Positions 30,458 through 36,539 of a stretch of 64,000 nt of DNA are shown in pieces. Source of the stretch: Chiloscyllium plagiosum (taxonomy: Eukaryota); the NCBI RefSeq assembly GCF_004010195.1, contig NC_057718.1:50050450-50114449 (forward strand), in the 5' to 3' direction. The notes below the pieces were generated by a model that was not told the origin of the DNA, made no database searches, and saw only the letters and a program-made list of their open reading frames with translations. Positions within the stretch are counted from its first letter, which is position 1; each line of letters starts with the position of its first letter. The position numbers and the translations under genes are program-made.

Positions 30458-30600
30458 NNNNNNNNNNNNNNNNNNNNNNNNNNNNNNNNNNNNNNNNNNN
30501 NNNNNNNNNNNNNNNNNNNNNNNNNNNNNNNNNNNNNNNNNNNNNNNNNNNNNNNNNNNNNNNNNNNNNNNNNNNNNNNNNNNNNNNNNNNNNNNNNNNN
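30458..30600. other. Assembly gap (143 N)
   Basis: Run of N inside CR1 ORF1. Confidence 1.
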
Positions 30601-33521: not shown

Positions 33522-33905
33522 CTATGACCCCATTTAACCTTCTTAATTCATCATTTCAGATTGGTCCTACATTCCCAATGTTCTTCCAAAACTTCATCTG
33601 TCTTCAGTCATTTCGACCTTAAGTATGCTTCCTTTCTCCTCTTCGTTCATCACACAATTTCACTTGTCATCCTTGCTTCCTTATCTTGCCATTTCTATTC
33701 CTCATTTTCACAGGATCATGTCTCTCCTGAACTCTATCAATGTTTCTTTAAAAGTCTCCAACATATCAAATGTGGATTTATCTTCAAACAGCTGCTCCCA
33801 ATCTACACTCCCCGGGTCTTGCCGAAATTTGGTATAATTGGCCTTCCCCCAACTTAGCACTCCTCCTTTAGGACCACTCTCACCTTTTGTCGATGAGTAT
33901 TCTAA
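33522..33905 (-). mobile_element. Upstream continuation of the 27160-29271 CR1
   Basis: 'gacccatttaaccttcttaattcatcatttcagattggtcctac' continues the EN-RT linker broken at 29271. Confidence 0.75.
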
Positions 33906-34004
33906 TTCTTACAAAAATGTGACCACTATACAAAGCTGAAATTGGAGGAGCACAGATTTCTTGGAGACCATGCGGCTAGAGGAAATTACAGCTATAGAAC
34001 ATCA

Positions 34005-34640
34005 GTCATCATCATCATTGACAGTTTCTGACAGGCAAAAATGACTCTCTTCCACTCTCAGGTGAGTCTAAAGGTGGCTGTATGGACTGATGAAGTTTCT
34101 GCAGATCCAGTCATACTTGGAGGCCAGAAGGTGGTTGTGGGAAGGGATAATAATAAGAGAGATCTTATTATTATTTCCTATTAAAACCTCTGGCCAAATT
34201 TTCTCTGATAACTTACACGTTCAACATTTGACTGGCTTCACACAAGACTATGCCAGGCACTGATTTTGAAGCTACAGCTTTTCTGCAGCAGTCCTCCTTG
34301 TAAAACAGCAGATTTTGACATTAAAAGTAAATTAATATCAATATTTCATTGTCCTGATCCATCCTCATTGTAATTAATGTCATAAGTTATTCGTTTCTGT
34401 ATAATAGTCCTTCAATCCTTATCAGTAACCGATGATCCTTGTTCATAATCCCTCTATCGTCTCACTGTTATTCAACCCTAATCCAAACCAAGGTGGTTGA
34501 TGCCTCCCTGGATGCTCCTCTGCTACTTTGGACAGGCTTGGACCAGTGATTCACAGGTGTCGTTGTGGGAATGCCGCACCTCACCAAGGAGGCTTTGACG
34601 GTATCCATGAAGCATTTCTTCCATTCATACGGGATTCCCC
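34005..34640 (-). mobile_element. RTE-clade LINE 3' fragment interrupted by the inverted duplication
   Basis: Spacer encodes KKCFMDTVKASLVRCGIPT/DTCESLVQACPK*QRSIQGGINHL. Left flank encodes KYDWICRNFISPYSHL*TH (decayed C2H2 finger) followed by an (ATG)n tail. Confidence 0.75.
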
Positions 34641-34984
34641 TGCTGTTTCAGTTTGGATTAGGGTTGAATAACAGTGAGACGATAGAGGGATTATGAACAA
34701 GGATCATCGGTTACTGATAAGGATTGAAGGACTATTATACAGAAACGAATAACTTATGACATTAATTACAATGAGGATGGATCAGGACAATGAAATATTG
34801 ATATTAATTTACTTTTAATGTCAAAATCTGCTGTTTTACAAGGAGGACTGCTGCAGAAAAGCTGTAGCTTCAAAATCAGTGCCTGGCATAGTCTTGTGTG
34901 AAGCCAGTCAAATGTTGAACGTGTAAGTTATCAGAGAAAATTTGGCCAGAGGTTTTAATAGGAAATAATAATAAGATCTCTCTT
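34155..34984. repeat. Inverted repeat: 334-bp arms (34155-34488, 34651-34984), 162-bp spacer
   Basis: Base-by-base reverse-complement comparison showed no mismatch. Confidence 0.95.
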
Positions 34985-36539
34985 TTTAGGTAGAAAATCT
35001 CTTGCAGACATGTCTGTTTTACAATCCAGCAATACATAAGGTCAGGATTTTTAAAAAAGTTTCAACTTTTCAAATGGCATTGAATACTTTGGTGCATACC
35101 AGGCTCGGTTTGAGCATTAGTGCAGTTGAAGAACTATCTCCTAGTTACCCCTGTGTTGCAGGTAAATACTCTCTCTCACTCTGAGTGCTGCCAACCAGAA
35201 CCACTTAACATAAAGCAGGACTTGTTCACACCCTGGATATAGGAATTCGATCAGAACTGAATGGCATCAGAAGTAAAAAATCTCAACCAAATACAAAACA
35301 ATCATGAAGCCAACTGTTCACCTACCAACATCAACCATTAATCTTCAATGCAAAGCCTGAAGCGTTCAACTATCTGGCTGTTTTTTGAACTTTTAGTTTT
35401 TTGAACTTACCTCTTAGACCTGACCTGCATGCACATATGTTGCATTACTATTTCTATGCATGTTTATGTAAATAAATGTACACTTTATGTTAATACAAGG
35501 AAGTCTGATTAAATTTGCTCCTTTTAAAACATCGATACATTTGGGTCTAGGAGAAAGCTATCCATAAGGGAGAGCATCCTTTATGAAATAACATTATTGC
35601 AACTGTAAAAGGAAAGGGTGACAAAAGAAAGGAAACCAGTTCATTCCTCTTCACCTGTGAACTAGATATTTTTGGGATATCCCATCTTGAATCGTAAGGA
35701 GTTGTGGAACCTTGTCAGGGATCTGATTGTAACTTACTTGAATAGCAATCAAATTATTATGAAATGCCAGTAATCTAATGAATTAATAGAGCATTAGCCA
35801 TTAGCAAGTCAATATATTAATAGAACTGCAAGTCCAGCAAATTAATAAGTTAATACAGAAGTGGGCTAACCATGACAAATCAATTAATAGAGCAATAGCA
35901 ACGGGCAAATAAAGAATAGTGAGAATATTAGCAAATGTATAAATTACTACAATATAAATTAATGTAGCATACCCAAAATAAATGTATTAATAGATTTGGT
36001 TCTGTTCATAAATTAATAAAATAATAGAACATTTAACACAAGCGTATCAAAAAGTTAATAAATTAATAGAATATTTAGCACAAGCAAATCAAAAAATTAA
36101 TAAAATGGGCACTAGCAAATTAAAAAGAAATATAGCAGTGAACATAATGCATAACAGCAATTTAATAAATTAGTGGAAAACGAGGAACACAACTGTTATG
36201 AATGTATCTCATTTTGGAGGGCAGAAAACTGGAATTGGACAAGCAATGTTTATCAAAGCAGTTGCAAATTGGTAATAATACTTCACAGGGTTCTACACTG
36301 TGGATATGTAATGGCTATTTTCTTACGGTCTTGTACCAGTACTGGCTTGGAGGTAAAACTGTGATGGGAATGAGGAAGAGAATGGAAATGGGGAGAGGTC
36401 TAATACATGGCACACCAAGTCCAGCCAAGAGACCATATAGACTATACAGAAAGAAACAGTCAGTAGGTATGATCTGCATACGAGGGCACTCCTAATAAAT
36501 CCTTCATGATTGCATATCTGAATTGGATGATGCAAAAGG

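What the first reader, a model, noticed from the sequence alone, without database searches (positions are those of the whole stretch)
34147..34984. 334-bp inverted duplication with a template-switch junction, inserted into a decayed RTE
Seen: arms 34155-34488 and 34651-34984 match with no mismatch found. The spacer and the left flank are consecutive pieces of one old RTE 3' end, with an intervening part apparently missing. The left arm is therefore the new copy, templated from DNA only 162 bp away. At the left junction ATAATAATAAGA (34147-34158) is a forward copy of 34965-34976 that flips to the reverse strand through AAGA microhomology, creating a 12-bp mini-palindrome. Inference: a very recent replication/repair template switch (FoSTeS/MMBIR- or Pol theta-like). 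If transcribed it would give a long perfect hairpin (ADAR, Dicer or dsRNA-sensor substrate) and could extrude as a cruciform.
Basis: partly seen in the sequence, partly recalled or inferred. Interest (0 to 1): 0.7.

Follow-up and report, generated by a model that had tools for sequence, protein, structure and literature searches.

The report
Polymorphic fold-back scar in shark DNA
A 334-base stretch in a shark-like genome has been copied backwards next to itself, replacing 74 bases of a dead jumping gene; the copy was seen in 3 of 5 samples and the uncopied form also exists, so it is likely an ordinary DNA-repair scar of a known kind, with no function shown.

Summary
The arms 34155-34488 and 34651-34984 match at 334 of 334 positions. 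Public contigs show the uncopied allele in one same-species sample and in a relative: left flank to 34150, 74 other letters, spacer, one arm. So 338 new bases replaced 74. The outer junction (J1) is in 3 of 5 same-species samples from two studies. The inner junction (J2, 34488|34489) is blunt and no contig spans it.

J1 reads as a snap-back: a 4-bp hairpin at the arm end, 8 nt of self-templated synthesis, then joining through ATAA, which is ancestral flank. An ancestral 5-bp hairpin sits at J2's right edge. My favoured route is fold-back into a ~500-bp palindrome, then one-sided deletion of its centre (0.45). One multi-switch replication event is nearly as likely (0.40).

It is not a foldback transposon: single copy, no target-site duplication. 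'Very recent' is only bounded loosely, a cruciform is unlikely with a 162-nt spacer, and transcription is untested. This is a known class (human 'inverted dup'), and this scan noted similar cases in this and other genomes.

The parts
34006..34150 (-). 3' part of an old non-LTR retroelement remnant (RTE-like; clade name recalled), with a short (GAT)n run at 34006-34018 on the minus strand; left flank of the event
   Evidence: Sequence. Contiguous with the spacer through 74 letters in the uncopied allele; repeat-derived contigs join ~34062 to 34491-34564.
34147..34150 (+). ATAA: ancestral flank and 4-nt microhomology at outer junction J1
   Evidence: Uncopied-allele contigs of X3 and X12 match the window through 34150; equals 34965-34968.
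34151..34154 (+). TAAT: extra bases from the short self-templated step; with the flank and arm start they form the 12-bp mini-palindrome 34147-34158 / 34163-34174
   Evidence: spanned by contigs in X1, X3 and X5.
34155..34488 (-). Left arm: new inverted copy of 34651-34984, replacing 74 ancestral bases
   Evidence: 0 of 334 mismatches; absent from the uncopied allele.
34488..34489 (.). Inner junction J2: blunt, no microhomology on either side; not spanned by any contig
   Evidence: ancestral letters before 34489 from the loose end of X3; flat depth at 34436-34467 and zero depth at 34440-34475.
34489..34650 (-). 162-nt spacer in ancestral orientation; C-terminal coding piece of the retroelement. 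Its first four bases are part of the 3' arm of an ancestral 5-bp hairpin (CTTGA / 9-nt loop / TCAAG)
   Evidence: 49% identity over 51 aa to P0123, a whale-shark predicted protein with a weak RVT_1 hit. Hairpin read by eye from the loose end.
34651..34984 (+). Right arm: the donor, single-copy DNA, 35% GC, no sign of coding constraint
   Evidence: One contig per run covers 34212-34467 at 90% likeness; 15 of 338 differences to the relative; no other hit in the window.
34965..34984 (+). Snap-back unit at the donor end: stem AAGA (34973-34976), loop TCTC, stem TCTT (34981-34984), then template 34965-34972
   Evidence: This hairpin is the minimum-energy DNA fold of 34960-34984: -0.8 kcal/mol at 37 C, -2.5 at 15 C.

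Best explanation
This is a real, polymorphic inverted duplication in which 338 bases replaced 74, likely a neutral scar made when a broken DNA end folded back and copied about 500 bases, was joined by snap-back microhomology, and likely lost one side of the palindrome's centre afterwards. Step 1 (inferred): a break fell in the 74-nt piece and the right-hand end was resected. Step 2 (inferred; the hairpin is seen in the ancestral allele): the bottom strand's 3' end paired at the 5-bp hairpin CTTGA/TCAAG (9-nt loop) beside 34489. A processive polymerase then copied the spacer and the donor up to 34984. Step 3 (sequence shown, order inferred): the new end folded TCTT onto its own AAGA and added 8 nt. 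The last four of these paired with ATAA at the left end, giving J1. Step 4 (inferred, intermediate not seen): the resulting ~500-bp palindrome with a 9-nt loop was unstable. A blunt, one-sided deletion from the loop removed the inverted spacer copy, leaving 334-bp arms around 162 nt (J2). The allele now segregates in the species.
For: Shown: uncopied allele in X3 and X12; J1 spanned in X1 (33833-34184), X3 (34094-34184, depth 6.5 beside 13.9) and X5 (33824-34191). The X1 arm-plus-spacer contig has depth 15.7 against 8.66 for the flank contig. J1 meets the three SD-MMEJ criteria of PMC5728401 (passage) with a 12-nt motif, 4-nt primer and 4-nt microhomology; the snap-back hairpin is the predicted fold. 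A direct fold-back with a 162-nt loop has no primer stem: 0 of the last 15 ancestral letters before 34489 match the arm end in register (by eye). A 5-bp stem starting within 1 nt of a given place occurs at 3% of window positions for loops of 3-12 nt, and 5-11% for loops up to 20 nt. Established: fold-back synthesis primed at a short inverted repeat and captured by the other end with 0-5 bp microhomology in yeast (PMC11724301, passages); secondary end-joining that widens palindrome spacers (PMC10766186, passages).
Against: The long-palindrome intermediate was not observed. The hairpin coincidence was found after the fact and its chance rises to 10-23% under looser definitions. Yeast fold-back insertions reach only about 150 bp, most under 14 bp (PMC11724301). 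Switch points in template switching need little identity (PMC5453318, passage), so a blunt J2 does not require two steps. J2 itself is not confirmed outside the window. Depth figures are single contig means and fit several models (X1: 14.3, 15.8 or 17.3 predicted, 15.7 seen; X3: 15.9 or 17.8 predicted, 18 seen). Junction sequence cannot tell which strand was being made.
Confidence: 0.45

Rival explanations
1. One replication-coupled event with three switches (FoSTeS/MMBIR; four-point type 1-4-3-2 plus one extra switch). The top strand stalled at 34150, re-primed through ATAA at 34965, copied 8 nt, flipped strands through AAGA/TCTT, copied 330 nt backwards and rejoined bluntly at 34489.
For: Both priming steps have 4-nt microhomology and only the last join is blunt. 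Type 1-4-3-2 with its mirror is 31% of high-confidence human-chimp events (PMC5453318, passage). Chained local switches with a short forward piece are described (10.1101/2021.11.26.470150, passage). No unseen intermediate is needed.
Against: It needs both parental strands exposed about 550 nt ahead of the stall and two intermolecular switches within 20 nt. Read on the bottom strand, the same letters are one simple intramolecular hairpin. It leaves the 5-bp hairpin at J2's edge to chance (3-11%). 330 nt exceeds the longest event (318 bp) in the human haplotype survey (passage).
Confidence: 0.4
2. The centre of the window is misassembled, or is a rare version. Carriers really hold a longer palindrome in which the spacer is doubled too.
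For: No contig spans J2 in the 5 same-species DNA runs laid. X1's contig is exactly 34489-34984 (496 nt), the piece that a long-palindrome/ancestral heterozygote with a loop-less centre gives without simplification. Depths of 15.7 and 18 fit a doubled spacer at least as well.
Against: A window-type/ancestral heterozygote gives a 60-nt, single-copy J2 piece; Logan contigs are simplified and lossy (10.1101/2024.07.30.605881, passage), and dropping that piece plus the ancestral path also yields 496 nt. If the centre were the 9-nt loop, a palindrome/ancestral heterozygote would give 511 nt, not 496 (by reasoning). X6 and X7, which show no J1, also have holes at the spacer start, so holes alone say little.
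Confidence: 0.1
3. A foldback/MITE transposon, a by-product of the retroelement's own insertion, or a pure assembly artefact.
For: Perfect arms. The retroelement's 5' end lies near the arm's inner end (match starts at 34641). Earlier notes on this genome describe insertion-linked inverted copies (unchecked).
Against: The arm is single-copy at 90% likeness in 4 of 4 runs. No adjacent target-site duplication of 2-15 nt. The retroelement is present without the duplication in X3 and in the relative, so it is older than the duplication. J1 is in three samples from two studies.
Confidence: 0.04

Closest known systems
'Inverted Dup' class of human structural variants (Sudmant et al. 2015, PMC4617611; passages read)
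   Same: Polymorphic; duplicated stretch under 1 kb, inserted inverted within 5 kb of the other copy; not a retrotransposition product.
   Different: Found in a shark-like genome; donor only 162 nt away; nested 8-nt snap-back at one junction; not validated by long reads here.
Four-point template switch, type 1-4-3-2 / 3-2-1-4 (PMC5453318, part 1 of 6 and passages; 10.1101/2021.11.26.470150, passages)
   Same: Same order of points; creates an inverted repeat around an un-inverted spacer and replaces local sequence.
   Different: Needs one more switch than the model allows; copied piece 330 nt against a human mean of about 12 bp and a maximum of 318 bp; net gain of 264 nt.
Snap-back SD-MMEJ (PMC5728401, passages)
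   Same: J1 has an inverted primer repeat (4 nt), short synthesis and a new 4-nt microhomology, all within 30 nt of the join.
   Different: Here the snap-back sits at the end of a long copied tract rather than at a primary break; enzyme dependence is untestable; J2's 5-nt motif is at chance level.
Local fold-back inversions at breaks in yeast (PMC11724301, passages)
   Same: One end primes on itself, the new strand is captured by the other end with 0-5 nt microhomology, and an inverted repeat results.
   Different: Yeast events are 2 to about 150 bp and have a primer repeat at the base of the loop; the 162-nt loop here has none.
Secondary revision of palindromes (PMC10766186, passages; the centre-break papers seen only as titles in its reference list)
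   Same: A palindrome born at a short interrupted repeat is stabilised by a later end-joining deletion that widens the spacer, often with a blunt or microhomology junction.
   Different: Those cases are kilobase-to-megabase copy-number variants; the intermediate here is inferred.

Membership tests
Inverted Dup structural variant | Duplicated stretch under 1 kb, inverted, within 5 kb of the other copy | tested here: met
   334 nt, 162 nt apart
Inverted Dup structural variant | An allele without the copy exists | tested here: met
   X3 record 19 and X12 record 13
Inverted Dup structural variant | Both new junctions supported by independent sequence | tested here: inconclusive
   J1 in 3 of 5 same-species samples; J2 in none
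Four-point template switch 1-4-3-2 | Point order 1 < 4 < 3 < 2 with the spacer in its original orientation | tested here: met
   34150 < 34489 < 34651 < 34984; spacer on the same strand as the flank in the uncopied allele
Four-point template switch 1-4-3-2 | One switch and one return only | tested here: not met
   An extra short templated segment at 34151-34154 needs a third switch
Snap-back SD-MMEJ (J1) | Repeat motif of 4 bp or more, within 30 bp of the join, with primer and microhomology of 1 bp or more | tested here: met
   12-nt motif, 4-nt primer, 4-nt microhomology; 7 of 3000 random joins reach 12
SD-MMEJ (J2) | Junction-spanning repeat motif above chance | tested here: inconclusive
   5-nt motif; 1029 and 1085 of 3000 random joins reach 5 or more
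Pol theta templated insertion (whole event) | Insertion up to about 30 nt | tested here: not met
   338 nt inserted; size range from PMC11724301, passage
Pol theta templated insertion | Dependence on POLQ | not testable with these tools
   Historical germline event
One-step fold-back inversion with a 162-nt loop | Pre-existing inverted microhomology at the base of the loop | tested here: not met
   0 of 15 in register (by eye); 1 of 7 inward pairs
Foldback/MITE transposon | Dispersed copies | tested here: not met
   One contig per run over 34212-34467 at 90% likeness in 4 of 4 runs; no other copy in the window
Foldback/MITE transposon | Target-site duplication | tested here: not met
   No adjacent direct repeat of 2-15 nt; 74 nt of target lost
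RTE-clade retroelement (host of the event) | Homology to the region downstream of a non-LTR reverse transcriptase | tested here: met
   P0123, 49% over 51 aa, E 3.5e-11 in the region; its RVT_1 hit is weak, 17.3 bits against a cut-off of 29.6
RTE-clade retroelement (host of the event) | Placement in the RTE clade by reverse-transcriptase tree | not tested
   The remnant holds no RT domain; the clade name is recalled from motifs
ADAR/Dicer double-stranded RNA substrate | Transcription across both arms, with editing or small RNAs | tested here: inconclusive
   Fold predicted; no usable RNA test was obtained (see Tried and rejected)

The most novel reading that the evidence does not exclude
The locus is a natural snapshot of palindrome birth and repair. 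The ancestral allele, a ~500-bp palindrome with a 9-nt loop, and one or more centre-deleted derivatives (the window's allele among them) all still segregate in one shark species, so each step of fold-back and centre revision could be read from living alleles.
Probability: 0.1. Interest if true: 0.55.

Novelty: new member of a known kind. Interest (0 to 1): 0.27.

Why it matters
As it stands it is a well-resolved example of a common class of small structural variant, with before and after alleles in hand and a clear snap-back junction in a cartilaginous fish. It shows how long perfect hairpin templates can arise in one or two steps from ordinary DNA. It would matter more if carriers differ at the centre, because that would test directly whether spaced inverted duplications descend from tighter palindromes, or if the region is transcribed, because carriers and non-carriers would form a natural comparison for a new 334-bp double-stranded RNA.

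Tried and rejected
No whole genome was held, so genome-wide copy counts and a survey of similar events were not possible. No RNA holder was listed. One single-cell RNA run laid on 34440-35500 gave 0 of 12,955,460 records, about 2% of the run; this is no test of expression. Rfam: 0 matches in the window. Pfam on the 150 of 294 unmasked frames of 45 aa or more nearest the locus: 2 weak hits below cut-off, no host gene identified; short exons would be missed. An exon-like stretch inside the donor (34843-34922, followed by GTAAGT) was considered and dropped: the relative differs at 4 listed places inside it and at the donor +5 base (34927), no lower than the arm's 4.4%. The spacer peptide found nothing; of 3 hits, P0121 and P0122 are unrelated repetitive proteins and were set aside. 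Parts without contig cover (spacer start in X5, X6, X7) were not used as evidence. The search for primary papers on centre deletion of palindromes returned nothing relevant. I make no claim that this locus or class is absent from print in sharks; no search targeted that.

Full report
Observation. The arms 34155-34488 and 34651-34984 are exact reverse complements over 334 nt, with a 162-nt spacer that does not pair inward. It is the only pair at 100% among the 25 longest of 161 inverted pairs in the window. The 12-mer at 34147-34158 recurs forward at 34965 and reversed at 34163. The surroundings are rich in LINE remains. A neighbouring frame resembles a bamboo-shark predicted protein, and the spacer matches a whale-shark predicted protein with a weak reverse-transcriptase hit, 49% over 51 aa. 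The host is therefore likely a shark, and the spacer is the C-terminal coding part of a dead non-LTR element. The name RTE is recalled from motifs and was not tested by a tree.

Is it real? No genome was held, so I used public runs (24 listed; 7 different runs laid). In the relative (X12) one 2617-nt contig runs from the left flank to 34150, through 74 other letters, through the spacer and into a single arm. The same uncopied allele is in same-species sample S2 (X3, 627-nt contig). The new outer junction J1 is spanned in S1 (X1), S2 (X3; depth 6.5 beside 13.9, so likely heterozygous) and S3 (X5, a second study). In S4 and S5, contigs run unbroken past 34984 and no J1 piece is shown (7 of 7 and 8 of 11 records displayed); contigs show presence, not absence. 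J1 is thus seen in 3 of 5 same-species samples. One of S1 or S2 may be the source of the window; S3 is from another study. The event replaced 74 bases with 338 (34151-34488).

What is not confirmed. No contig spans the inner junction J2 (34488|34489) in the 5 same-species DNA runs. A model graph shows J2 would be a 60-nt single-copy piece in a heterozygote. Logan contigs are simplified and lossy (10.1101/2024.07.30.605881, passage), so its loss is plausible; bias against fold-back fragments in libraries is a further recalled cause. But X1's contig is exactly 34489-34984, which needs two different sequences before 34489 in that sample, and the depths fit a doubled spacer as well as the window's form. 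A different centre in some carriers is not excluded.

Junction J1. The uncopied allele matches through 34150, so ATAA is old flank. On the bottom strand the letters read as the donor copied forward to 34984, a fold of TCTT onto AAGA around a 4-nt loop, 8 nt of self-templated synthesis, and pairing of the last four with the flank. That hairpin is the minimum-energy DNA fold of the donor end, though weak (-0.8 kcal/mol at 37 C). The junction meets the three SD-MMEJ criteria (PMC5728401, passages). Random joins reach a 12-nt motif in 7 of 3000 trials. Read on the top strand, the same letters are two switches, each primed by 4 nt; sequence cannot choose between the two readings.

Junction J2. It is blunt. 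The last ancestral letters before 34489 (loose end of X3) match the arm end at 0 of 15 places in register, and the inverted copy would have continued with different letters from the spacer start. Its 5-nt repeat motif is at chance level (about a third of random joins). So a one-step fold-back with a 162-nt loop had no primer. However, the ancestral sequence has a 5-bp hairpin (CTTGA, 9-nt loop, TCAAG) whose 3' arm starts one base before 34489. Such a stem starts within one base of 3% of window positions (loops of 3-12 nt), 5-11% for loops up to 20 nt, and up to 23% under the loosest definitions tried. I noticed it after the fact.

Mechanism. I commit, at 0.45, to a break whose right end folded back at that hairpin, copied about 500 nt, snapped back and joined the left end through ATAA, followed by a blunt one-sided deletion of the palindrome's centre. 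Fold-back synthesis captured by the other end is shown in yeast, for events up to about 150 bp (PMC11724301, passages). Later widening of palindrome spacers by end joining is argued for human and yeast inverted variants (PMC10766186, passages). The close rival, at 0.40, is one replication event with three switches, an extended type 1-4-3-2 (PMC5453318, part 1 of 6 and passages; chained switches in 10.1101/2021.11.26.470150, passages). A wrong or rare centre gets 0.10. Transposon, insertion by-product or artefact gets 0.04: the arm is single-copy, there is no target-site duplication, and the retroelement predates the copy. Pol theta could have finished J1 but is unlikely to have copied 330 nt.

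Age. Identity over 334 nt bounds arm divergence below 0.9% (95%), against 31 of 777 (4.0%) differences to the relative. At the epaulette shark rate of 7e-10 per generation (PMC10587355, passages), if it applies, that allows up to 6.4 million generations. The duplication is linked to C at 34124 in the window and S2, and to the ancestral T in S1 and S3, so it is older than at least one flanking change. Copying between the arms would loosen the bound further. It is younger than the split from the relative on the evidence of one contig.

Function. The region is predicted to fold into a 334-bp stem (-673.5 kcal/mol, z -58.5), which follows trivially from the repeat. Whether it is transcribed remains open. 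Longer spacers lower palindrome risk, and 52 bp already removed frequent stalling in eukaryotic cells (PMC7999016, passages), so a cruciform is unlikely at 162 nt. I read it as neutral.

Novelty. In human data 54% of the inversions resolved by sequencing were inverted duplications, nearly all under 1 kb and within 5 kb of the other copy (PMC4617611, passages). This is a new member of that class. Earlier notes of this scan describe similar cases in this and other genomes (unchecked). What stands out is having both alleles, a clean nested snap-back, and a testable hint of a two-step history. PMC10622511 and PMC11292364 were seen only in search listings and carry no claim here. No supplements were read.

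Noticed in passing
window 35248 / 35441: Sample S4 (X6, record 14, 59 nt, depth 7.2) holds an opposite-strand join between 35219-35248 and 35413-35441: probably a second small inversion-type allele about 260 nt right of the donor arm; only one junction was seen.
   Followed up: no
window 34161 / 34978: In S3 (X5) the graph branches at 34162 instead of 34155, which implies a variant near 34978 on the right-hand path, inside the loop of the snap-back hairpin; in S3 either the two arms differ there or its other allele does.
   Followed up: partly
window 34910-34912 (seen at 34227-34229 on the left arm): Three adjacent substitutions between the window and the relative; possibly one multi-base mutation.
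   Followed up: no
window 34710, 34773, 34804, 34898, 34919: Five variable sites in the donor among same-species samples; X1 and X5 match the window at all five.
   Followed up: partly
window 35397: S5 (X7) has a contig with a 24-letter loose end that finishes in a T run just before 35397; an insertion or length variant in a T-rich stretch.
   Followed up: no
window 35123-35194: Short stretch shared with several unrelated contigs in 3 of 3 DNA runs; likely a fragment of a dispersed repeat.
   Followed up: no
window 35776-36140: AT-rich imperfect tandem array, period about 42 nt.
   Followed up: no
window 30458-30600: 143-base N gap inside a long LINE copy whose 3' end lies near 33528.
   Followed up: no
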